33,659 bases of DNA, from contig JBBQMV010000001.1 in assembly GCA_038329315.1 (NCBI GenBank), forward strand, positions 1-33,659. The letters run 5' to 3'. The stretch is from Bdellovibrionia bacterium. GTDB lineage: Bacteria > Bdellovibrionota > UBA1018. Below are positions 2,583-33,092 of the stretch, in pieces. Numbering within the stretch: position 1 is the first letter of the stretch; every line of letters starts with the position of its first letter. The notes beneath the pieces were generated by a model. That model worked only from the letters and a program-made list of their open reading frames with translations. It did no database searches and was not told where the DNA came from. Made by a program: the position numbers and the translations under genes.

Positions 2583-2658
2583 CCGCTCATCGTGCCAAAT
2601 CGTGGGTTGGATTTCATCCGAAGATTCGATACTTCTGAACGTACGATCGGGGGGTCGT

Positions 2659-4359
2659 ATGGGCTGCATCACGCTACAGATCGCAGGAGTCGTCGCCATT
2701 ACTATCGCGTTCTCAATCGGAGCCACCGCTTACGCGGTCGAATCTCCGGATTGGAGCGAAGGTGCATCCATCACCGCACCGCGCTCGAATCCTTATGGAC
2801 TCGATGCGACGGACTTCCCCGTTTCACGCCGCGAAGGTTACCTTCACGCACTCGAATATCCCCTCGATATCTCGGGGGTCATGATTCCGTGGCGGCCTAC
2901 TGAAGAATTTTTAAATAACCATTCCTCGAATCCGATCCGTAAAATTATTCACGGCGCGTTCATGGGCCTCTCTAACATTAGAAGTACCGATGACCTCTTC
3001 GAGCGGGCTGGTCTCCATCCTTACCCGACGACCGATGCCGAGGGCGCCGACACGATTCCGCATCGAGGTCCGAGGGCGCCGACCGCACGCATGGGCGTAA
3101 CGGTGTTCGAGCGCCAGGGAGTCGAAGCGTTCACGCTCTCCTGCGCTGCCTGCCATAGCGCGAATCTCTTCGGAAAAAAGATTCTCGGGATGACGAACCG
3201 CTTTTCGCGAGCGAACGATTTCTTCGTACTTGGAAAAAAAGCGATCGGTCTCGTTGGCACTCCTCTTTTCGCCAACGTCCTCGGTGCGACCACGGGCGAA
3301 GCTGACCTCTATTCTCGTCTTCGCGCTCGATTAAAATCCGTGGGAACGAAAGAACCGGCTATCCTTGGTCTGGATACGTCTCTCGCCCAAATCGCGATAT
3401 CGCTCTCGCTTCGTTCGGACGACGAGTACGCCTCTTTTGATCCCCACCGTGAGAAATTCCCTAAAAAGGAACCCCTTAATGATTTCGTCGCCGATGGAAA
3501 ACCCGCGGTTTGGTGGAATACGAAGTATAAGAATCGGTGGCTCTCCGACGGTTCCATCGTTTCCGGAAATCCGATCTATACGAACATCCTCTGGAATGAA
3601 ATCGGCCGCGGTACCGATCTCCACGAACTCGAAGCCTGGTTCGCGGCGAATCCGAAGATCATCGAGGAACTGACGACCGCCGTCTTCTCGACGGAAGCGC
3701 CGCGAATCACTGACTTCTTCCCGGCCGAACGGATTTCGATCGAGCGCGCGAAACGCGGTGAAGTCGCGTTCAATAAAACATGCGCGGGATGCCACGGGAC
3801 CTACACGAAGGCCTGGTCCCGCACAGACGGCGATCTCCTTCCACTCGTCGAACGGTTAAAGACCGACACTGTTCACTACCCCGAGAAGACGAAGGTCGTG
3901 AATGTCGGCACCGATCCCCAGCGCGCCGCCGGAATGGCGTCCCTTGAAAAAGGTCTAAACCCGCTCGCGATCTCGAAACGCAATGGCATCGTGATCAAAC
4001 TCCAGAAGGGCTACGTCCCCCCTCCCCTCGTCGGAATCTGGGCGCGCTGGCCCTACTTCCACAATAACTCCGCGCCGAATCTCCAAGCGGTCCTCACTGC
4101 CGGTAAGGATCGGCCCGCGACTTATTATGCCGGCGAAGCGCTCGACCGCGAGAAGGACTACGACTCTGACCTCGGCGGCTATCCTGAAGGCGACCGCGTG
4201 CCGACCGCTTGGAAGACCGGCAGCGACTATCGCTACGACACTTCGAAGCCGGGCATGACAAACCGCGGACACGATGAAGGCGTTTTCCTGAAGAAAGGCA
4301 TCGAGATCTACACCGCCGATCAGAAGCGCGACATCATCGAGTTCTTAAAGACTCTCTGA
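2659..4359 (+). CDS. di-heme cytochrome c, peroxidase (CCP/MauG)-like, secreted
   Basis: Two CxxCH heme-binding motifs (LSCAACHS, KTCAGCHG). A CCP-like distal motif WPYFHNNSAPNLQAVL. Start chosen at the ATG at 2659 (MGCITLQIAGVVAITIAFSIGATAYA|VESP signal peptide, G-rich RBS-like run just upstream). The ATG at 2602 is an alternative. Confidence 0.75.
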   Translation: MGCITLQIAGVVAITIAFSIGATAYAVESPDWSEGASITAPRSNPYGLDATDFPVSRREGYLHALEYPLDISGVMIPWRPTEEFLNNHSSNPIRKIIHGAFMGLSNIRSTDDLFERAGLHPYPTTDAEGADTIPHRGPRAPTARMGVTVFERQGVEAFTLSCAACHSANLFGKKILGMTNRFSRANDFFVLGKKAIGLVGTPLFANVLGATTGEADLYSRLRARLKSVGTKEPAILGLDTSLAQIAISLSLRSDDEYASFDPHREKFPKKEPLNDFVADGKPAVWWNTKYKNRWLSDGSIVSGNPIYTNILWNEIGRGTDLHELEAWFAANPKIIEELTTAVFSTEAPRITDFFPAERISIERAKRGEVAFNKTCAGCHGTYTKAWSRTDGDLLPLVERLKTDTVHYPEKTKVVNVGTDPQRAAGMASLEKGLNPLAISKRNGIVIKLQKGYVPPPLVGIWARWPYFHNNSAPNLQAVLTAGKDRPATYYAGEALDREKDYDSDLGGYPEGDRVPTAWKTGSDYRYDTSKPGMTNRGHDEGVFLKKGIEIYTADQKRDIIEFLKTL

Positions 4360-7688: not shown

Positions 7689-8648
7689 TTACCCCGTTTT
7701 TTTAAGGAGATAGGAGAACGCGACTTTTCCGCTCATGAACGTGGTTACGCGGTTTCGCCCCCCCTGCTTAGATTCATAGAGCGCTTTATCTGCCCGTTTT
7801 AAAGTTTCTTCCGGAGAAACTCCCGTCTCGTAAACGGAAACGCCCACACTCGTGGTGACTCTCCCTAATGGCTGATGTTCGCCGTGAGGAAAAACTTCAG
7901 TCTCGATTTCTTTGCGTGCCCGTTCTGCGAATTCACGACCCGCTTCGATCCCGGCTCCCGCGACAAGAACCACGAATTCTTCACCTCCGTACCGAGCCAC
8001 GAATTCCGCCCGTCCGGTCACGCGTTTCAGCGCCTTCGCTATTCTGCGAAGCGTCTCGTCGCCGGCTGGATGTCCGTTCCGATCATTGAAGTGTTTGAAG
8101 TGATCGATATCGAAAAACGCGATACAATAGGGCTGATTCTTTTTCTCCGCTCGCTCATGCTCGAGCGCGAGTCGTGCCCGGAATGCGCGAAAATTCGAAA
8201 GTCCCGTCATCTCGTCCGTCAGCGACTGTTGTTCGAGCTGGTTTCGCTTTGTTCGTTCTTTCGTCACGTCACGCGCGAGGACTTGGTAAACTTCGCAATA
8301 GTCCGCGAGCCAAACACGGGCAAAAGTAAATTCGAGGATCTTACCATCTGCGATTGTCCGCTCGAGCGGAGTGCCCGGAATTTCGAACCAGGTTTGGACC
8401 ATCTCTCTCTCCGCTTCCGGGAAAACTTCGAAAAAATTCATCCCTTCGGGCGAAGCGTTGGCTTCGAGCAGGCCGCGAAAAGTGGCGTTCGTCTCGAGCA
8501 TTTCATAATTCCGAACGTCGACGAAAACGATGCCGTCATGCGAACGTTCGAAAAGATCCGAGTAGTTCGCGAGTTGGGAAAATTTCCCGCCCACGACCCG
8601 TCCTTCTAGTTTTTCGCGCGCGAGCGCCAAGAGTTTCTTCTGAGCCAT
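7689..8648 (-). CDS. PAS-like sensor domain / GGDEF diguanylate cyclase
   Basis: C-terminal GGDEF domain (DEMTGLSNFRAF..., FFDIDHFKHFND, active site RYGGEEFVVLV, ADKALYESKQGGRN). The N-terminal ~130 aa are PAS-like. Confidence 0.9.
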   Translation of the reverse strand: MAQKKLLALAREKLEGRVVGGKFSQLANYSDLFERSHDGIVFVDVRNYEMLETNATFRGLLEANASPEGMNFFEVFPEAEREMVQTWFEIPGTPLERTIADGKILEFTFARVWLADYCEVYQVLARDVTKERTKRNQLEQQSLTDEMTGLSNFRAFRARLALEHERAEKKNQPYCIAFFDIDHFKHFNDRNGHPAGDETLRRIAKALKRVTGRAEFVARYGGEEFVVLVAGAGIEAGREFAERARKEIETEVFPHGEHQPLGRVTTSVGVSVYETGVSPEETLKRADKALYESKQGGRNRVTTFMSGKVAFSYLLKKTG

Positions 8649-26737: not shown

Positions 26738-28501
26738 ATGAGTTCATACGTCGTCCTCGCACGCAAATGGCGCCCTTCGCAGTTCTCCGATATCGGTGGT
26801 CAGGGCCCCGTGGTTCGCACTCTGATGAACGCGATTCAGTCGGATCGTATTCATCACGCTTACCTCCTCACCGGCTCCCGCGGGATCGGAAAAACCTCGA
26901 TTGCTCGGATTTTCGCGAAGTCCATTCGCTGCCCGAACGCTAAGTGGGATGGTCAGTGGCTCCGGAGTTGTAACGAATGCTCCAGCTGCCGCGAGATCGC
27001 CGCCGGGAACTCCGTCGACGTCATCGAAATCGACGGCGCTTCGAATAACGGCGTCGATGCCGTCCGGGAAATCCGGGAGAGCGTAAAATTCATGCCATCT
27101 TCCGGTTCACGGAAGCTCTACATCATCGACGAAGTTCACATGCTGACGACGGCCGCTTTCAACGCGCTCCTGAAGACACTCGAGGAACCGCCGGCTCACG
27201 TCATCTTCGTCCTCGCGACGACCGAGCCACACAAAATTCCGGGAACGATCCTCTCCCGCGTTCAGCGCTTCGACTTGAAGCGGTTCACGCCAGCTCAGAT
27301 CCAAATCCGGCTTGAGGAAGTTTCCAAAGGGGAAGAAATCACCGTCGAACCCGCTGCCCTCGCTCTCCTTTCGCGCGCCGCCGACGGATCGATGCGGGAC
27401 GCCCTCTCTCTTTTCGATCAAGTCATCGCGTACGCCGGTAAGAAAATCACTGCGGTCCAGGTCCGCGACTCGATCGGACTTATCGAGAGCCAAACCCAAC
27501 TTGGAATCCTGCGCGGAATCTTCACGCGGGACGCGAAGGGCGCGATCGAACTCGTCGGCGAAGCCTACCGTGCCGGACACGAACTAAAACTTCTCGCGAA
27601 GAACCTCCTCGAGTACCTCCATGCCGCGATTCTGATTAAAATCGGCATCGAATCGACAGGGCTTGAACTTTCGGCGGACGAAATCGCCGAACTGAAGAAA
27701 ATCGCTGCAAATCGCGAACTCGAAGAAATCGAACTCTTTTTTCAAGCTTTCCAAAACGGAATCGAGTGGATCGCCCGCTCGCCGCAGCCAAAACTAGTTC
27801 TCGAAGTTCTCATCGTGAAGTGTGCTTCTGCGGAATCGCTCATTTTAATGTCGGGCCCGATTTCTGGAAAAGGCGGCACCGGAACCGCCGGAGGTCGTAC
27901 ACCGACCGCTTCGGGCAACCCAGCTTCTGCAACCCCAGTGGCTCCCGTCGAAAAGAAAATGGGCGATCTTCCGAAAGCCGGTCTCCTCTTCACGGGCTCT
28001 TCGCCTATCGCGCTAAAAAACGCAGCCGAAACCATCGCAAACTCCATTTCGAATTTAGGCGCTAGCCGGGTACCCCAGGGCCCGAAGACGTTCGAAGGGT
28101 TTATCGGCCACGTCCGGGCTTCCCGCCCGGCGATTGCGAATGCGCTCGAAAACGCCGTTTGCGCGAGCTTCCCGACGACGAATGAAATCGAATTTATCGT
28201 CGCCTTCTCGCCTGAGAACGATGCGCTTTATCACGGTCTTCTCACGAGCAATGCCGCACTCGCGGAATTCCAGAAGTTCACGCTCGAGTATTTCGGCGTC
28301 GTGAAGCGGATTCTGGTCGAAGTGCGTGAAATGGCCGAACTTTCCCTCGCGGTCCGCCGCGAAAACGACTACGCATCCCGCGAGAAAACCGCGAAGGACG
28401 CCGCCGCCAATCATCCGCTGATCGCCGAAGCCCGTGCACTTTTCGGCGGTGAGCTCGGGCCGATCGAACTTTCGAGTAACGACGAAGGAGAGAAGAAATG
28501 A
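26738..28501 (+). CDS. dnaX: DNA polymerase III subunit tau (gamma/tau)
   Basis: LARKWRP..F.D..GQ, Walker A GSRGIGKTS, a Zn module CNECSSC, DEVHML, and SR-x-Q. A Gly/Pro/Thr-rich linker is followed by a C-terminal domain. 587 aa. Confidence 0.95.
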   Translation: MSSYVVLARKWRPSQFSDIGGQGPVVRTLMNAIQSDRIHHAYLLTGSRGIGKTSIARIFAKSIRCPNAKWDGQWLRSCNECSSCREIAAGNSVDVIEIDGASNNGVDAVREIRESVKFMPSSGSRKLYIIDEVHMLTTAAFNALLKTLEEPPAHVIFVLATTEPHKIPGTILSRVQRFDLKRFTPAQIQIRLEEVSKGEEITVEPAALALLSRAADGSMRDALSLFDQVIAYAGKKITAVQVRDSIGLIESQTQLGILRGIFTRDAKGAIELVGEAYRAGHELKLLAKNLLEYLHAAILIKIGIESTGLELSADEIAELKKIAANRELEEIELFFQAFQNGIEWIARSPQPKLVLEVLIVKCASAESLILMSGPISGKGGTGTAGGRTPTASGNPASATPVAPVEKKMGDLPKAGLLFTGSSPIALKNAAETIANSISNLGASRVPQGPKTFEGFIGHVRASRPAIANALENAVCASFPTTNEIEFIVAFSPENDALYHGLLTSNAALAEFQKFTLEYFGVVKRILVEVREMAELSLAVRRENDYASREKTAKDAAANHPLIAEARALFGGELGPIELSSNDEGEKK

Positions 28502-29127
28502 ATAACTCAGGATTCTCCGGAGCCCAGAAGAGTGACCCAGTTTCGAAACTGATCTTCGAACTCTCAAAACTTCCGGGCATCGGCGAAAAAACCGCCACCC
28601 GCCTCACCTACTTTATTCTGAAGCAAGACGCGTCCTACGCGGCGTCGCTGGCAGAAGCACTCGTATCGGCGAAATCAAAAGTCGGCCTTTGCACACTTTG
28701 CTTTACCTTCACGGATTCGGATCCATGCCGGACGTGTTCCGACATCACTCGCGACCGCGCGATGATTTGTGTCGTCGAGCGTCCTTCGGACATGAACTCG
28801 ATCGAAATGTCAGGAACTTTTCGCGGCGTCTACCACGTTCTCCACGGAGCTCTTTCTCCACTCGACGGGATAGGTCCGGACGAACTAAAAATTCGCGAAC
28901 TCCTCGACCGCATCCGCGCACCGGTCGCACCGATCCGCGAAGTTCTACTCGCGATGAATCCGAGCGTCGAAGGCGACGCTACTTCGCTTTACCTGACCCG
29001 ACTCATTCGCCCTCTTGGCGTACGTATCACCCAGCTTGCTCACGGAATTCCGATGGGCGGGCAACTCGAATACACCGACCGACAAACCATCGGTAAGGCG
29101 ATCGAGAATAGAATGGAGATGCGTTAA
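28498..29127 (+). CDS. recR: recombination protein RecR
   Basis: HhH motif LPGIGEKTATRL, a Cys4 zinc finger CTLC...CRTC, and a Toprim region. ATGA overlap with the dnaX stop. Confidence 0.95.
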   Translation: MNNSGFSGAQKSDPVSKLIFELSKLPGIGEKTATRLTYFILKQDASYAASLAEALVSAKSKVGLCTLCFTFTDSDPCRTCSDITRDRAMICVVERPSDMNSIEMSGTFRGVYHVLHGALSPLDGIGPDELKIRELLDRIRAPVAPIREVLLAMNPSVEGDATSLYLTRLIRPLGVRITQLAHGIPMGGQLEYTDRQTIGKAIENRMEMR

Positions 29128-29130
29128 AAC

Positions 29131-29724
29131 GTGAGCTTCATCAACTACTCCACCAAAGAGGTGAACTGTAAGATCGTTTACGTCGGTACCGGGCTTTCCG
29201 GTAAGACGACGAACGTCCAGTACATCTACGAACAGACGGCGCAAGACCTGCGCGGGAAGTTCTTCGCCGGAAACACCGAAAACGAGCGGACGCTCTTTTT
29301 CGACTTCCTGCCTTTAGGAGTCGGCGACGTGCGCGGATACAAAACGCGCTTCCACCTCTACACGATTCCCGGCCAAACCTTTTACGAGGTTTCGCAGCAG
29401 TTCATCCTGAAGGGTGTCGACGGTGTGATCTTCGTCGTCGATAGCCAGGCCGAACGGATGGAATCGAACTTAGAAAGTTTTGAAATTTTGACTCGGAACC
29501 TGGAACGCCAAGGTTACGACCCGAATAAACTCCCGCTCGTATTTCAGTATAATAAGCGGGATTTACCAAGCGCGCTTCCAGTCAAAGAGTTAGAACAAAC
29601 CTTCAACCCCGGTCGCAAACCGTCTTTCGAGGCGGTTGCAAGTCGGGGGGACGGGGTGATGGAGACGCTTCAATCGATCACGCAGTGGGTGATCCGTGAA
29701 CTTAAAGGGGGAGAAAAACCATGA
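29131..29724 (+). CDS. mglA: Ras-like polarity GTPase MglA
   Basis: Collinear with MglA over its full length: MSFINYSTKEVNCKIVYVGTGLSGKTTN..., ERTLFFDFLP, RFHLYTIPGQTFY, QYNKRDLP. GTG start 3 nt after the recR stop. G21, R53 and Q82 fall in the Myxococcus/Thermus numbering register. Confidence 0.9.
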   Translation: MSFINYSTKEVNCKIVYVGTGLSGKTTNVQYIYEQTAQDLRGKFFAGNTENERTLFFDFLPLGVGDVRGYKTRFHLYTIPGQTFYEVSQQFILKGVDGVIFVVDSQAERMESNLESFEILTRNLERQGYDPNKLPLVFQYNKRDLPSALPVKELEQTFNPGRKPSFEAVASRGDGVMETLQSITQWVIRELKGGEKP

Positions 29725-30131
29725 GAAAAGAAACTCTGAATCGGTTTAAGAAGATGTTCGTGGCGGAGAAGCGGAAGCTACTTTTCGCGGATAAGATTCT
29801 TCGGGATGAATTTAGCGTAAACGCAGACGATCGTTTCGACGAGATCGACCAAGCGACGACCGATGCCGAACAGGCGATGCGGATGCGCCTTTGTAACCGT
29901 GAAACCCTCTACTTGAAAAAAGTCGACGACGCCCTCGCTCGTATCGAAGAGGGAACGTTCGGCCTTTGCGAAGTTTGTGAAGAAGATATCGGACTGAAGC
30001 GCCTCGAAGCGCGGCCGACGGCTACTCACTGCGTATCGTGTAAGGAAGATCAAGAGCGACGCGAATTTCACACGGCAGCTGGTCTCACTCACAAATCACT
30101 CGGTGAAACATTCTCGAAAAAATACGCATGA
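29721..30131 (+). CDS. DksA/TraR-family C4 zinc-finger protein (paralog A)
   Basis: CEVC-x17-CVSC zinc finger, with LEARPTATHC as in DksA. A coiled-coil region contains a DxxDxA tip motif (DEIDQA, residues 40-45). A strong RBS (GGGGGAG) lies upstream, and the ATG overlaps the mglA stop (ATGA). Confidence 0.85.
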   Translation: MRKETLNRFKKMFVAEKRKLLFADKILRDEFSVNADDRFDEIDQATTDAEQAMRMRLCNRETLYLKKVDDALARIEEGTFGLCEVCEEDIGLKRLEARPTATHCVSCKEDQERREFHTAAGLTHKSLGETFSKKYA

Positions 30132-30493
30132 ACGGAATCCGTCTTGCGATAGGGGTCCTCGGCTTGATCGCCACTCTGGCGATCGCCGCGGATCCCGCGC
30201 CTTCTCCGCGCCCAGTCACGAGCACAGTGGTACCGTTCGTTCCCGAGCGGTGTGCCGCTCCGTGCATGATGCGCGAAAGCTCCGGGAAGTGCGACGCGAC
30301 GGGAAGCGAGACGTGCGGTATCGGATATGCCTGCGTTCCACGCTGCATTCTGAGGAAGGCCGATGGGAGCTGCCAAACCTACACCGCGGATTATTGCGGA
30401 TCTGGTGCGACTTGCGAATCTCGATGCCTGAACCGAAGCCCCGAAGGAACTTGCACGACGTTCGATAGTGACGCGTGCTCGACTCACCTTTAA
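30128..30493 (+). CDS. secreted cysteine-rich repeat miniprotein (121 aa)
   Basis: The ATG overlaps the stop of the dksA-like gene (ATGA). Signal peptide MNGIRLAIGVLGLIATLAIA|ADP, then a Pro-rich linker, then 12 Cys with exactly periodic spacing (C-x3-C-x8-C-x7-C-x5, repeated). Competing ORFs in other frames lack these features. Confidence 0.6.
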   Translation: MNGIRLAIGVLGLIATLAIAADPAPSPRPVTSTVVPFVPERCAAPCMMRESSGKCDATGSETCGIGYACVPRCILRKADGSCQTYTADYCGSGATCESRCLNRSPEGTCTTFDSDACSTHL

Positions 30494-30507
30494 TTCGGAC
30501 AATTTCC

Positions 30508-30528
30508 TGACGGCAAAATTTGCCGTCA
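30508..30528. promoter_or_regulatory. perfect 21-bp palindrome between the Cys-rich ORF and the ATPase gene
   Basis: TGACGGCAAAATTTGCCGTCA is perfectly self-complementary about the central A. It lies 15 nt after the stop at 30491-30493 and 75 nt before the GTG at 30603. Confidence 0.35.
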
Positions 30529-30602
30529 TTAAAAATTCTATCTCCTAAATTTCCCCTTGGATGCGAGAATAGAGACTCCTCTTTCTTCAACCGGGAGTCA
30601 TC

Positions 30603-31826
30603 GTGAGCGCCAATAGAAACGTCTACGACCTCATAGTGCGTCCTGGACGGCCGAACACGGTTCAGGAAATCGTAGATTTTTTAATCATCAACGCCTTAAA
30701 AACGAAAGCCAGTGACATTCACCTCGGACTTTCGAGTCAGGGCGGCCCGGGCGGCCTCGCCTATATGCTTCGTTTCCGCGTTCACGGAAAACTCCAAGTC
30801 GTTCGGACGGAGTTCATCGGCACGAACCACAAAGAAATCATGACTCGCTTGAAAGTGCTCGCCGGAATTTCCACGACGGAAATCGGCACGCCCCAAGACG
30901 GCATGATCAATATGAACACTCCCGAGGGGACGCTCGTTTTACGATTGAGCTTCATTCCAAGTCCGGAAGGCGACGAAGTCGTGATCCGGGTCCAACGTGC
31001 CCAAAAAATTCCGCCTCCCGAACAGCTCGGAATGACCGGCGATATGCTGAAGCACATCCAAACCCTCCTCCAACAAAAGTCCGGATTAATCGTCGTAAAT
31101 GGCCCAGCCGGGAGCGGAAAAACCACCACGATTTATTCACTGATCGCAGCAATCGCATCGGCCGAAAAGAAAATTTTAACGGCTGAAGATCCGATCGAAC
31201 TGCGGCTTCCATACGTGAGCCACACCGCCGTCGGTCGTAACACGAGTTTCGCCCAGCTTTCGAAGGCCTTCATGCGCCAAGACGCCGATGTCATCTTTAT
31301 CGGCGAGGTACGTGACCCGGAATCGGCCGAAGCCGCGGTCCAGCTCGCCCAAACGGGACACCTCGTCTTTACTACGCTTCACACTCGAGACGCGCTCGGA
31401 GTCATTCCGCGCCTCGAAGCGTTCGGCATTCACCCGAACTTTATCGCCAGTACGCTCATCGGTTCACTCGCCCAGCGTCTCGTTCCGAAACTCTGTTCAA
31501 AATGCCGAGTTGAAGACGAGGTAGATGAACCTACCCAGTTCTATATGAAATCGATATTCCCGATGTTTCAAGGAACGAAGCTCCGGAGGGCCGGGTCCGG
31601 CTGTCCGGACTGCACGGGCGGTTACCTCGGCCGAATTCCGATCTACGAACTTCTCACCCTCTCCCCAAAGATTTCCGATTTGATCAATCGGCGAGCTTCA
31701 CAAAAAGACCTTCTCGAAGCGGCCCGTGAGGGCGGGATGCTGACGCTCGGCCAAGAGGCGCTGATCCGAGTTTACTCAGGTCACGTCGACTTCAATTCCG
31801 TAAAGGGCTATATTTCCGGTTCGTAA
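30603..31826 (+). CDS. PilB/GspE-type (type II secretion / type IV pilus) hexameric ATPase, short form
   Basis: Walker A GPAGSGKTTT, Asp box EDPIE, Walker B DADVIFIGEVRD, His box TGHLVFTTLHT, and a tetracysteine CSKC...CPDC as in PilB/GspE (absent from PilT). GTG start preceded by GGGAG with a 5-nt spacer. At 407 aa it lacks the long N-terminal GSPII-type domains. Confidence 0.9.
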   Translation: MSANRNVYDLIVRPGRPNTVQEIVDFLIINALKTKASDIHLGLSSQGGPGGLAYMLRFRVHGKLQVVRTEFIGTNHKEIMTRLKVLAGISTTEIGTPQDGMINMNTPEGTLVLRLSFIPSPEGDEVVIRVQRAQKIPPPEQLGMTGDMLKHIQTLLQQKSGLIVVNGPAGSGKTTTIYSLIAAIASAEKKILTAEDPIELRLPYVSHTAVGRNTSFAQLSKAFMRQDADVIFIGEVRDPESAEAAVQLAQTGHLVFTTLHTRDALGVIPRLEAFGIHPNFIASTLIGSLAQRLVPKLCSKCRVEDEVDEPTQFYMKSIFPMFQGTKLRRAGSGCPDCTGGYLGRIPIYELLTLSPKISDLINRRASQKDLLEAAREGGMLTLGQEALIRVYSGHVDFNSVKGYISGS

Positions 31827-31835
31827 AAAAGCGAA

Positions 31836-31865
31836 CCGCCGAACGTCGTCCCTTACGTTCGGCGG
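31836..31865 (-). terminator. strong hairpin terminator, with a T-tract only on the minus strand
   Basis: Perfect 11-bp stem CCGCCGAACGT (31836-31846) / ACGTTCGGCGG (31855-31865) with an 8-nt loop. On the minus strand it is followed by TTCGCTTTTTTAC. On the plus strand it lies 10 nt after the ATPase stop but is followed by CCCTGGC. Confidence 0.55.
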
Positions 31866-32062
31866 CCCTGGCTGTAGCGGAGCGCCAGCAGTTGCCTGCG
31901 GCTGCGTCCGTCGTAATCACCTCAAATATTCTGCCCCAACGTCCCCTTTGTGACAGAGCCTGCGGTGATCAACGCCTTTCATACTTCCATGATGATTCAG
32001 AGTTTTTCACTTCCGTGTGGGTCTACCCGTCATCCGTAACGGCCAGACCGTAAGGAAGAGAA

Positions 32063-32473
32063 TTACGCGAACTTGATCTGACGACCGACGCTCTTATGCG
32101 AATGACCGTCGATGTGAAGCTTCTCGGTCCGTTCAGCCGTTTCCTTACAAGCTACGCAGAGCGTAGTCGTCGGGCGCGCTTCGAGACGGCGGAGCTCGAT
32201 GTCCTCTTCGCATTCGTCGCACTGACCGAACGAACCGGTTTGAATGCGATCGAGAGCCTCTTCGATCTTTTTGAGGTAGAGCGCTTCACGCGTTGCGAGA
32301 CGCATCCTCATTTGGTTTTCGATTTCGAACGAAGTGAAGTCCACTTCATCCATCAGATCGTCGGTCTGCATCGCGAACTTGTCGTTCGCCGCGCGACCAG
32401 AAAAGAGCAACCGGCTCTTTTCGTTTTCGAAGAGGGACTTAAACTTGGCTTGAAATTCGGATGAACGGATCAT
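32063..32473 (-). CDS. DksA/TraR-family C4 zinc-finger protein (paralog B)
   Basis: CDEC-x17-CVAC, LEARPTTTLC. Same length (136 aa) as paralog A and roughly half identical to it by eye. Its tip motif reads DEVDFT (DxxDxT). Confidence 0.85.
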   Translation of the reverse strand: MIRSSEFQAKFKSLFENEKSRLLFSGRAANDKFAMQTDDLMDEVDFTSFEIENQMRMRLATREALYLKKIEEALDRIQTGSFGQCDECEEDIELRRLEARPTTTLCVACKETAERTEKLHIDGHSHKSVGRQIKFA

Positions 32474-32620: not shown

Positions 32621-32827
32621 CTACGGTTTCAGAGAAACAGCGTAGGCATATTCAGGATCTTGGAAATCGTACCGGGCTGCGGGACCAAACACAGACCAGA
32701 ACAGAGCAAGCACACGAGCGGCGCTTTGGTAGGGAGCTACGTAGAAAGGTTCTTCAAGTTGACCTACGTTCGCGTTTGCGACGTTAGCCTTCTTCACTTT
32801 TGTGGATTCGTTGATAAGCGTATTCAT
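32621..32827 (-). CDS. hypothetical small protein (68 aa)
   Basis: The internal ATG at 32827 is preceded by AAGGAAGGG with a ~7-nt spacer. The longer track ORF (to 32959) has no such signal. No recognisable family. Confidence 0.45.
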   Translation of the reverse strand: MNTLINESTKVKKANVANANVGQLEEPFYVAPYQSAARVLALFWSVFGPAARYDFQDPEYAYAVSLKP

Positions 32828-33092
32828 AACGATTCCCTTCCTTTCCAGAGAGGGGTTGTTTTCCCTCTCACAGCCTCCACTGACTACTATTGCGAGCGGT
32901 GTGCCAGTGGTTTGGACATGCAAAAAACCGAATGTTTTCGCGAATTCCGAGCGCACCATTTCGGTCGAATTCCGCCGAAACCACGTAAAAAGGACTCTTC
33001 TGGGTCTTCTCGGCCCTGGTTTTTCAGACAGGGAATGTCACTTGGGACATAGTGATACCGCCAATTTTTCAACGCTTTCGCCGCGTACAGAA

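What the first reader, a model, noticed from the sequence alone, without database searches (positions are those of the whole stretch)
29131..31826. MglA with no adjacent MglB, translationally coupled to a DksA-like factor and a Cys-rich secreted protein, followed by a minimal PilB/GspE ATPase
Seen:
- A full-length MglA has G21, R53 and Q82 in the canonical register.
- No Roadblock/LC7 (MglB-like) ORF lies on either side of it.
- Its stop overlaps (ATGA) a DksA/TraR zinc-finger gene.
- That gene's stop overlaps (ATGA) a signal-peptide Cys-rich ORF.
- After 109 bp containing a 21-bp palindrome comes a 407-aa PilB/GspE-type ATPase with a complete catalytic core and Zn tetracysteine but no N-terminal GSPII domains.
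- No pilC, pilM-Q, gspF or pilin gene lies nearby.

Established: MglA is normally encoded as mglBA and controls polarity of type IV pilus and gliding machinery. Published work on Bdellovibrio describes an MglB-less MglA affecting pilus-dependent prey invasion.

Inference: these four genes may form a compact module linking a Ras-like switch, an RNA-polymerase secondary-channel-type factor, an extracytoplasmic disulfide-rich protein and a secretion/pilus motor. I do not recognise this combination as described. Retention of the GAP-responsive residues without a nearby GAP is itself notable.
Basis: partly seen in the sequence, partly recalled or inferred. Interest (0 to 1): 0.7.

Follow-up and report, generated by a model that had tools for sequence, protein, structure and literature searches.

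The report
MglA-DksA operon with accessory ATPase insert
The four genes are real, but only the GTPase switch MglA and the DksA-like gene travel together across predatory Bdellovibrio-type bacteria; the cysteine-rich protein and the short ATPase are an optional two-gene insert that close relatives lack, so this is mostly an ordinary, already known kind of locus with one small new detail.

Summary
Every sequence-level observation holds. There is a genuine MglA (G21/R53/Q82/T78; E=2e-78 to solved M. xanthus MglA) and no Roadblock/MglB gene anywhere in the 33.6-kb window. ATGA overlaps link mglA, the dksA-like gene and the Cys-rich ORF. A 109-nt spacer holds a 21-nt palindrome. The 407-aa GspE/PilB-type ATPase lacks N-terminal domains, and there are no pil/gsp genes.

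The "four-gene module" is not an evolutionary unit. I examined 80 species-level Bdellovibrionota genomes chosen only by MglA similarity:
- recR lies upstream in 78/80.
- A DksA-family gene lies directly downstream in 71/78 (32 with a 4-nt overlap).
- The ATPase occurs once and the Cys-rich ORF never.

Relatives about 85% identical in DNA lack exactly window 30128-31816. Others hold unrelated genes at that spot. Homologous short ATPases sit in unrelated contexts.

So this is the known dnaX-recR-mglA locus without mglB (Bdellovibrio, Milner 2014), plus an accessory insert between two convergent dksA paralogs.

Two modestly new points:
- mglA-dksA coupling is phylum-wide and absent from 80 Myxococcus-type loci.
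- G21/R53/Q82 is universal (230/230).

Whether mglB lies elsewhere could not be tested.

The parts
26738..28501 (+). dnaX (DNA polymerase III tau/gamma), first gene of the tightly packed string
   Evidence: Pfam DNA_pol3_delta2, DNAX_ATPase_lid and DNA_pol3_gamma3. Its coordinates overlap recR by 4 nt. Conserved upstream of recR-mglA in most related loci.
28498..29127 (+). recR
   Evidence: Pfam RecR_HhH, RecR_ZnF, Toprim_4 and RecR_C. Ends 3 nt before mglA. Upstream of mglA in 78/80 species loci.
29131..29724 (+). mglA, Ras-like polarity GTPase with G21, R53, T78 and Q82; no adjacent mglB
   Evidence: E=2e-78 to M. xanthus MglA structures. 61% identical to Myxococcus-type MglA.
29721..30131 (+). 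dksA-like paralog 1 (DksA/TraR C4 zinc finger, tip DEIDQA = DxxDxA), ATGA overlap with mglA
   Evidence: PF01258 50.8 bits. TIGR02420 92.3 bits, below the cutoff of 115.5. PDB hits P. aeruginosa DksA2 4ijj and E. coli DksA 1tjl. Adjacent to mglA in 71/78 loci. DxxDxA in 65/72.
30128..30493 (+). Secreted Cys-rich protein: three exact 27-residue repeats C-x3-C-x8-C-x7-C. First gene of the accessory insert.
   Evidence: Frame and 12 Cys conserved in L086-L088. No Pfam or NCBIfam family. 142 cluster representatives at E<=1e-3 among 1.84 billion proteins, many multi-repeat. Absent from 80/80 species loci.
30508..30528 (+). 21-nt palindrome / RNA hairpin (9-bp stem) after the Cys-rich ORF; poor U-tail
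   Evidence: spacer fold -30.8 kcal/mol, z=-3.8. Partly conserved in L086 with one mismatch. Not called a terminator by the scan.
30574..30599 (+). Predicted hairpin pairing the ATPase Shine-Dalgarno (GGGAG 30593-30597) with 30574-30580
   Evidence: MFE fold. Pairing kept in L086 through two single-base changes. Function is inferred only.
30603..31826 (+). Orphan short GspE/PilB-type ATPase (N2 + C-terminal ATPase domain, Zn tetracysteine, no N1E/GSPII domain). Second gene of the accessory insert.
   Evidence: Present in 1/80 species loci. Homologs sit in unrelated contexts.
31833..31868 (-). Strong hairpin (14 pairs, 9 GC) with T-run on the minus strand: intrinsic terminator of dksA paralog 2. 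Right-hand border of the variable spot.
   Evidence: The same hairpin follows dksA1 about 26 nt after its stop in L082, which lacks the insert.
32063..32473 (-). dksA-like paralog 2 (C4 zinc finger, tip DEVDFT), convergent with the mglA string
   Evidence: A second paralog lies downstream of mglA in 44/80 species loci.

Best explanation
The region is the Bdellovibrionota version of the conserved dnaX-recR-(mglB)-mglA cluster. Here mglB is missing, and mglA is followed by a DksA-family gene (dksA1) that overlaps its stop codon. A second paralog (dksA2) lies close by, convergent in this lineage.

In this lineage, the short stretch between dksA1 and the dksA2 terminator holds different genes in different close relatives. 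Here it holds a 1.7-kb two-gene insert: a secreted disulfide-repeat protein and an orphan, N-terminally short GspE/PilB-type ATPase. Equally close relatives have nothing, a hydrolase, transporters or other genes at that spot.

How it most likely works:
- Inferred from spacing only: dnaX, recR, mglA, dksA1 and the Cys-rich gene are transcribed as one unit, and the overlapping stop/start junctions favour translational coupling.
- Shown by sequence: MglA is a complete GTPase switch.
- Inferred: it acts, as in B. bacteriovorus, with RomR/SgmX-type partners encoded elsewhere.
- Inferred from family features: dksA1 carries the DxxDxA tip and C4 zinc finger of RNA-polymerase secondary-channel factors.
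- Inferred: the ATPase is catalytically intact but has no co-encoded platform or pilin genes, and it is not tied to mglA in evolution. Its presence next to mglA is positional, not functional.
For: Synteny in 80 genome loci chosen by MglA similarity only:
- recR upstream in 78/80.
- recR-mglA gap of 60 nt or less in 59 loci.
- A Roadblock-type ORF in a gap of 400 nt or more (470-575 nt by ORF coordinates) in 14 Bacteriovoracaceae loci.
- A dksA-like gene directly downstream in 71/78 loci, 32 of them overlapping by 4 nt.
- ATPase in 1/80 and Cys-rich ORF in 0/80.

Presence/absence of the insert:
- L082-L085 align to the window up to 30127 and again from 31817.
- In those loci the same terminator hairpin follows dksA1.
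- L086 and L088 keep both insert genes.
- L002 has the ATPase with an unrelated 82-aa lipoprotein. L003 and L004 have an alpha/beta hydrolase. L005, L006 and L089 have other genes. L007 has nothing.

ATPase:
- Its homologs (43-83% identity, 398-464 aa) form a Bdellovibrionota clade without PF05157.
- They lie next to OmpA/MlrC, sigma-54 activator/GSDH, or PTPS/PhoD genes, never next to pil/gsp genes.

The dnaX-recR-mglA synteny and the loss of mglB in Bdellovibrio are published (PMC3983030).
Against: - Operon structure is inferred from spacing only; no expression data were available.
- The insert sits upstream of the only strong terminator and the Cys-rich ORF overlaps dksA1, so in this organism the insert genes probably are co-expressed with mglA. 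That leaves room for a lineage-specific functional link.
- In the loci examined, the Cys-rich ORF is never found without the ATPase, so the two could still work as a pair.
- Phylogenetic non-independence of the 80 loci was not corrected for.
Confidence: 0.8

Rival explanations
1. Functional MglA-DksA partnership. The phylum-wide, often translationally coupled mglA-dksA1 pair reflects a real link between the polarity GTPase and an RNA-polymerase secondary-channel factor. For example, it could fix their stoichiometry or tie attack-phase/growth-phase transcription to the pole switch, possibly through direct binding.
For: - Adjacency in 71/78 loci at MglA identities of 61-96%, 32 with a 4-nt overlap.
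- 61/62 loci without room for mglB have it, against 8/14 loci with an mglB-like gene.
- Absent from 80 Myxococcus-type mglA loci, of which 63 have at least 600 nt downstream.
- The paralog next to mglA keeps DxxDxA (65/72) while the second paralog does not.
- No paper links MglA, DksA and Bdellovibrio.
Against: - The same string also contains dnaX and recR, which have no known link to MglA, so conserved order can be hitch-hiking in a housekeeping operon.
- Tight junctions are common between unrelated genes in this window.
- Six Bacteriovoracaceae loci and L043 lack the gene.
- The counts are not phylogenetically independent.
- No interaction or expression evidence exists.
Confidence: 0.15
2. 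All four genes form one compact functional module in which MglA controls the minimal PilB/GspE motor, with the DksA-like and Cys-rich proteins as further parts.
For: - In this window the four genes are co-oriented, three are joined by ATGA overlaps, and the only strong terminator lies after the ATPase.
- The arrangement is kept in L086 and L088.
- MglA is known to stimulate type IV pilus formation (PMC7519303 and PMC3983030).
Against: - 0/80 species loci have the four-gene order, and the ATPase is present in 1/80.
- A clean absence of 30128-31816 in L082-L085.
- L002 pairs the ATPase with an unrelated small ORF.
- ATPase homologs occur in four other contexts without mglA.
- No platform, pilin or secretin genes lie in 33.6 kb.
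Confidence: 0.04
3. The Cys-rich+ATPase segment is a horizontally acquired mobile island.
For: Presence/absence polymorphism with sharp borders, at a spot that holds different cargo in different relatives.
Against: - No integrase, transposase, flanking direct repeats or tRNA were found.
- GC is 0.55, like the rest of the window.
- The named closest ATPase homologs are Bdellovibrionota.
- L082 keeps about 10 nt resembling the 3' end of the ATPase gene before the terminator. This fits loss by deletion rather than gain (weak inference).
Confidence: 0.08

Closest known systems
Bdellovibrio bacteriovorus HD100 mglA locus (Bd3734; Milner et al. 2014, PMC3983030)
   Same: - dnaX-recR-mglA synteny.
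- No mglB next to mglA.
- Same phylum.
- MglA full length with conserved GTP-binding motifs.
   Different: - HD100 MglA has S21, read as GTP-locked. This window and all 230 related cluster representatives have G21.
- The DksA-family gene overlapping mglA is not mentioned in that paper.
- The window additionally carries the Cys-rich+ATPase insert.
- I could not retrieve the HD100 locus itself.
Myxococcus xanthus mglBA operon (MglA/MglB GTPase/GAP polarity module)
   Same: - MglA is 61% identical to Myxococcus-type MglA.
- G21, R53, T78 and Q82 are in the same register.
- recR lies upstream in many Myxococcus-type loci.
   Different: - No Roadblock gene lies between recR and mglA here.
- A DksA-family gene follows mglA here, but in none of 80 Myxococcus-type loci.
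Bacteriovorax marinus-type recR-mglB-mglA (BMS_0053/0054; PMC3983030)
   Same: Same phylum and same recR-mglA frame. MglA has G21.
   Different: Those loci keep a divergent Roadblock ORF of about 160 aa in a recR-mglA gap of 400 nt or more (470-575 nt by ORF coordinates) (14 loci). The window has a 3-nt gap.
DksA (E. coli, PDB 1tjl) and DksA2 (P. aeruginosa, PDB 4ijj)
   Same: - C4 zinc finger (CxxC-x17-CxxC).
- Coiled-coil region.
- Acidic tip DxxDxA aligned to DEADLA of 4ijj.
   Different: - No N-terminal extension.
- A 20-residue C-terminal tail.
- Scores below the NCBIfam DksA equivalog cut-offs (92.3 vs 115.5).
- One of two linked paralogs.
- RNA polymerase binding was not tested.
GspE / PilB / PilF assembly ATPases (PDB 1p9r, 5tsg, 5oiu)
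   Same: - N2 plus C-terminal ATPase domain.
- Walker A and B, Asp and His boxes.
- Zn tetracysteine.
   Different: - Lacks the N1E/GSPII/MshEN N-terminal domains: median 17 residues before the core against 178 in canonical relatives.
- Clade-specific GPAGSGKT and PQDG(Q/M) in place of GPTGSGKT and PQDG(R/K).
- No platform, pilin or secretin genes nearby in any of five contexts.

Membership tests
MglA (Ras-like polarity GTPase) | P-loop GxxxxGKT with Gly at position 21 | tested here: met
   Y17-V-G-T-G21-L-S-G-K-T-T27. G21 in 230/230 related cluster representatives.
MglA (Ras-like polarity GTPase) | Intrinsic arginine finger R53 and catalytic Q82. Thr78 in place of the Ras Asp in the TxxGQ motif. 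| tested here: met
   ENER53TLFF and LYT78IPGQ82 read directly. R/Q kept in 227/231 representatives, the rest unscored. The T78 feature is as described in PMC3000849.
MglA (Ras-like polarity GTPase) | Full-length similarity to experimentally solved MglA | tested here: met
   Residues 1-194 against 6h17, 5ymx and 6hjh at E about 2e-78, and against T. thermophilus 3t12 at 6e-62.
MglA/MglB coupled module | Roadblock/LC7 GAP gene (mglB) within a few genes of mglA | tested here: not met
   3-nt recR-mglA gap. No PF03259 hit in the window ORFs. No hit with the Bacteriovorax-type MglB HMM. The rest of the genome could not be searched.
DksA (RNA polymerase secondary-channel factor) | C4 zinc finger of the DksA/TraR type | tested here: met
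   PF01258 50.8 bits (cutoff 24.9), residues 78-113. C-x2-C-x17-C-x2-C.
DksA (RNA polymerase secondary-channel factor) | Coiled-coil with acidic tip DxxDxA | tested here: met
PF21157 scores 25.4 bits, just under its cutoff of 27.
DksA (RNA polymerase secondary-channel factor) | Reaches the curated equivalog score | tested here: not met
   TIGR02420 92.3 vs 115.5. NF033459 75.2 vs 105. NF008045 64.3 vs 289.
DksA (RNA polymerase secondary-channel factor) | Binds the RNA polymerase secondary channel and responds to ppGpp | not testable with these tools
   Needs biochemistry or a complex prediction.
GspE/PilB type II secretion / type IV pilus assembly ATPase | T2SSE core with Walker A/B, Asp box, His box and Zn tetracysteine | tested here: met
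   PF00437 283.8 bits. Motifs conserved in 81 clade members.
GspE/PilB type II secretion / type IV pilus assembly ATPase | N-terminal N1E / GSPII (PF05157) / MshEN domain that docks to GspL/PilM-type partners | tested here: not met
   No PF05157. The match starts at model position 109 (GspE) or 181 (PilB). Only 19 residues precede the core, and the ORF cannot extend upstream.
GspE/PilB type II secretion / type IV pilus assembly ATPase | Reaches the curated equivalog score. Encoded with platform (GspF/PilC) and pilin genes. | tested here: not met
   TIGR02533 301 vs 630. TIGR02538 283 vs 676. No such genes in the window or in four other contexts.
Proposed four-gene module (mglA, dksA-like, Cys-rich, ATPase) | Gene order conserved beyond the immediate lineage | tested here: not met
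   0/80 species loci have all four genes. ATPase in 1/80 and Cys-rich ORF in 0/80. Exact absence in L082-L085.
Conserved recR-mglA-dksA string of Bdellovibrionota | recR upstream and a DksA-family gene immediately downstream of mglA, same strand | tested here: met
   Window gaps are +3 nt and -4 nt. 78/80 and 71/78 loci respectively.

The most novel reading that the evidence does not exclude
In Bdellovibrionota the polarity GTPase MglA and a DksA-type RNA-polymerase secondary-channel factor form a conserved, translationally coupled pair. The pair was established within the phylum and is nearly universal where the adjacent GAP gene mglB was lost. It would link the cell-pole switch to transcription control (attack phase versus growth), possibly by direct MglA-DksA binding. 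The universally retained G21/R53/Q82 would then point to a still unknown GAP.
Probability: 0.12. Interest if true: 0.65.

Novelty: new member of a known kind. Interest (0 to 1): 0.33.

Why it matters
The result removes a tempting but unsupported story: a Ras-like switch wired to a minimal pilus or secretion motor.

It leaves two small, testable leads for people who study predatory bacteria.
- The gene after mglA is almost always a DksA-family gene in this phylum. Mutant and expression studies of mglA should take polar effects and possible co-function into account.
- The published idea that loss of mglB goes with a GTP-locked S21 MglA does not generalise. Most lineages without an adjacent mglB keep G21, R53 and Q82. 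Either mglB moved elsewhere or another GAP, or intrinsic hydrolysis, matters.

The short orphan GspE/PilB-like ATPase clade, and the 27-residue four-cysteine repeat family, are uncharacterised families that could be catalogued.

Tried and rejected
- B. bacteriovorus HD100 locus. I tried to reach it by searching with a Bdellovibrio-genus MglA. HD100 was not among the 120 listed hits, so whether Bd3735 is DksA-like remains unchecked. Literature searches for Bd3735 and for MglA+DksA+Bdellovibrio returned nothing. Lambert 2010 names Bd3519 as a dksA of HD100.
- mglB elsewhere in the genome. An HMM from 13 Bacteriovoracaceae MglB-like ORFs gave no hit in the window or in the +/-10 kb flanks of mglB-less loci.
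- A consistent small-ORF partner of the ATPase. The upstream small ORFs in the window, L002 and L090 are unrelated to each other.
- Mobile-element borders. Only short chance-like repeats were found, and there is no GC anomaly.
- The 21-nt palindrome as an intrinsic terminator. It was not called by the scan and has a poor U-tail. It may still be an attenuator or a protein site; this was not resolved.
- Structure prediction and fold search were not used, because sequence matches were unambiguous for three proteins. A single-sequence model of the Cys-rich protein would be unreliable.


Full report
What is there. The 3' quarter of the window carries a string of co-oriented genes.
- dnaX 26738-28501.
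- recR 28498-29127 (coordinates overlap dnaX by 4 nt).
- mglA 29131-29724 (3 nt after recR).
- A DksA/TraR-family gene, 29721-30131 (ATGA overlap).
- A 121-codon Cys-rich ORF, 30128-30493 (ATGA overlap).
- A 109-nt spacer.
- A 407-codon T2SSE-family ATPase, 30603-31826.
- A strong hairpin, 31833-31868.
- A second DksA/TraR paralog on the opposite strand, 32063-32473.

Both matter for the interpretation.

Checking the observation: MglA.
- It has G21, R53, T78 and Q82 in the M. xanthus register.
- It matches solved M. xanthus MglA over residues 1-194 at E=2e-78.

Checking the observation: DksA-like protein.
- It has the C4 zinc finger (PF01258, 50.8 bits).
- Its acidic tip DEIDQA aligns to the tip of P. 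aeruginosa DksA2.
- It stays below the NCBIfam DksA equivalog cut-offs.

Checking the observation: Cys-rich ORF.
- It is a real gene. Three metagenomic relatives with about 85% DNA identity keep the 121-codon frame and all 12 cysteines, while the other frames pick up stops.
- It consists of three exact 27-residue repeats, C-x3-C-x8-C-x7-C, behind a Sec-type signal.
- It has no Pfam or NCBIfam model.
- It belongs to a small uncharacterised repeat family: 142 cluster representatives at E<=1e-3, some with up to 12 repeat stretches.

Checking the observation: ATPase.
- It aligns to the N2 plus ATPase domains of PilF, GspE and PilB.
- It has all catalytic boxes and the tetracysteine.
- It starts at GspE model position 109 and PilB position 181, and cannot be extended upstream.

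Checking the observation: surroundings.
- Pfam scans of the remaining window ORFs found ordinary housekeeping genes. These include GGT, LpxC, RuvABC, AroA, PrmC, PrfA, Rho, MltG, a GT87 glycosyltransferase and Ogt.
- There is no Roadblock, pilus or secretion component, and no prepilin motif in any frame.
- The ATGA junctions are not special. Junctions of 4 nt or less are frequent in this window, also between unrelated genes.

Where it comes from. The closest named relatives of MglA and of the ATPase are uncultured Bdellovibrionota: 'Bdellovibrionales bacterium SZAS-2', Oligoflexia and Bacteriovoracaceae MAGs, and the isolate 'Bdellovibrionota bacterium FG-1'.

Is the arrangement conserved? I fetched 80 loci from one-genome-per-species collections using MglA similarity only. 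The sample is therefore unbiased with respect to the neighbours. MglA identity to the window ranges from 61 to 96%.
- recR lies upstream in 78/80. The other two loci lack upstream sequence.
- The recR-mglA gap is 60 nt or less in 59 loci and 65-295 nt in 5.
- In 14 Bacteriovoracaceae loci the gap is 400 nt or more (470-575 nt by ORF coordinates). Each of these holds an ORF of about 160 aa, and the two tested hit Pfam Roadblock/LC7 weakly (26.5 and 17.2 bits). This is the divergent MglB described for Bacteriovorax marinus (PMC3983030).
- A DksA-family gene lies directly downstream of mglA on the same strand in 71 of 78 informative loci. By ORF coordinates, 32 overlap mglA by 4 nt and 7 more lie within 10 nt.
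- A second paralog follows within 10 kb in 44 loci.
- By contrast, the ATPase is found in one locus (L002, 77% identity) and the Cys-rich ORF in none.

The insert is optional.
- Metagenome contigs that encode a 99%-identical MglA (L082-L085; about 86% DNA identity) align with the window up to 30127 and again from 31817. In between they have about 20 nt. dksA1 is followed about 26 nt after its stop by the same hairpin that follows the ATPase in the window, then by convergent dksA2.
- Contigs with a 98%-identical MglA (L086, L088; about 85% DNA identity) keep both insert genes.
- L002 has the ATPase preceded by an unrelated 82-aa lipoprotein.
- L003 and L004 have an alpha/beta hydrolase, and L005, L006 and L089 have other genes.
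- L007 has nothing between the paralogs.
- So in this lineage the stretch between dksA1 and the dksA2 terminator is a variable spot.
- About 10 nt before the terminator in L082 resemble the 3' end of the ATPase gene. This hints at loss by deletion, but it is a weak inference.
- There are no mobile-element genes, no flanking repeats and no GC anomaly.

What is the ATPase?
- Its relatives form a distinct group of 398-464-aa proteins (43-83% identity).
- Scores then drop sharply to canonical PilB/GspE proteins, most of which carry PF05157.
- In 81 members all catalytic motifs and the four cysteines are conserved.
- The N-terminal overhang before the core is a median of 17 residues, against 178 in canonical relatives.
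- The clade has its own signatures: GPAGSGKT, and PQDGQ or PQDGM where canonical proteins have PQDGR/K.
- Four homologs checked, falling into three other genomic contexts, lie next to OmpA/MlrC, a sigma-54 activator and GSDH, or PTPS/PhoD genes. None lies next to pilus, secretion or mglA genes.
- It works like a GspE/PilB motor core, but it fails two defining features of that family: the docking domain and co-encoded partners. It is best called an orphan short T2SSE ATPase. Its partner is unknown.

The MglB question.
- All loci, and all 230 MglA cluster representatives from two searches, have G21. R53 and Q82 are also present wherever scorable.
- Milner et al. (PMC3983030) linked the S21 of B. 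bacteriovorus MglA to the loss of mglB. Here 59 species leave no room for mglB between recR and mglA and still keep G21.
- This does not prove a GAP-less G21 MglA. Orphan MglB genes are common (328 of 749 in PMC4316618), and B. bacteriovorus retains a RomY homolog (PMC11025332).
- I could not scan the rest of these genomes.
- Orphan MglA as such is known (59 of 449).

The one new point.
- The mglA-dksA linkage appears specific to Bdellovibrionota.
- In 80 metagenome loci with Myxococcus-type MglA, 63 have at least 600 nt and 41 have at least 3 kb downstream. None has a DksA/TraR hit even at E<0.01, while recR with an mglB-sized gap is common.
- Within Bdellovibrionota, 61 of 62 loci without room for mglB have the adjacent dksA gene, against 8 of 14 with an mglB-like gene. 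These counts are not phylogenetically independent.
- The paralog next to mglA keeps DxxDxA (65/72). The second paralog almost always has Thr or Ser in place of the Ala.
- I found no paper that mentions this linkage.
- Its meaning is open. The same string includes dnaX and recR, so simple hitch-hiking in a housekeeping operon is the more likely reading. A functional MglA-DksA link is possible, at roughly 0.12-0.15.

Verdict. The interpretation as a four-gene module is not supported. The locus is a further member of the known MglB-less dnaX-recR-mglA arrangement of Bdellovibrio-type bacteria, with an accessory two-gene insert at a variable spot. The phylum-wide mglA-dksA coupling and the universal retention of G21/R53/Q82 are modest, testable additions.

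Noticed in passing
window 32063-32473 (-): Second DksA/TraR paralog, convergent with the mglA string. Its tip is DEVDFT: the Ala of DxxDxA is replaced by Thr or Ser in nearly all 51 paralog-2 copies. A second paralog lies within 10 kb downstream of mglA in 44/80 species loci.
   Followed up: partly
window 31833-31868: A 14-bp-stem hairpin with a T-run on the minus strand, i.e. the dksA2 terminator. It marks the right border of the variable spot and follows dksA1 about 26 nt after its stop in relatives that lack the insert.
   Followed up: yes
window 30574-30599: In the predicted fold of the 109-nt spacer, the Shine-Dalgarno of the ATPase (GGGAG) is paired with 30574-30580. The pairing is kept in L086 through two single-base changes. 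This may be translational control.
   Followed up: partly
window 30603-31826 and P0121-P0204: The short T2SSE ATPase clade has its own signatures. Walker A is GPAGSGKT in 78/81, against GPTGSGKT in 34/34 canonical proteins. PQDGQ occurs in 68/81 (M in the window), where canonical PilB/GspE has R or K.
   Followed up: partly
window 30128-30493; P0352-P0493: The Cys-rich protein is three exact 27-residue repeats (C-x3-C-x8-C-x7-C). A family of 142 cluster representatives exists with up to 12 repeat stretches. There is no Pfam or NCBIfam model, and one member also has collagen-like GxY repeats.
   Followed up: partly
window 28498-28501: The dnaX stop region overlaps the recR start, so there is no ybaB/DUF149 gene between them. 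Milner 2014 lists a DUF149 gene among the neighbours of mglA in HD100.
   Followed up: no
L065-L081 (e.g. L070 9508-9999): The Bacteriovoracaceae MglB-like ORFs share a conserved C-terminal motif, FLFxDI[ST]DxE[MI]DxLF, beyond the Roadblock core.
   Followed up: no
window 32621-32959 (-): A 112-codon ORF of unknown function next to dksA2, with tblastn matches in L002-L006. Gene callers annotate shorter versions (57-69 aa) in L082 and L086.
   Followed up: no
L114 909-2069: A Myxococcus-type metagenome contig carries two tandem mglA copies (60% and 57% identical to the window MglA).
   Followed up: no
window 7689-8648 (-), 2602-4359 (+): A GGDEF diguanylate cyclase and a RoxA-like multi-haem cytochrome c lie elsewhere in the window. 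They are unrelated to the finding.
   Followed up: no
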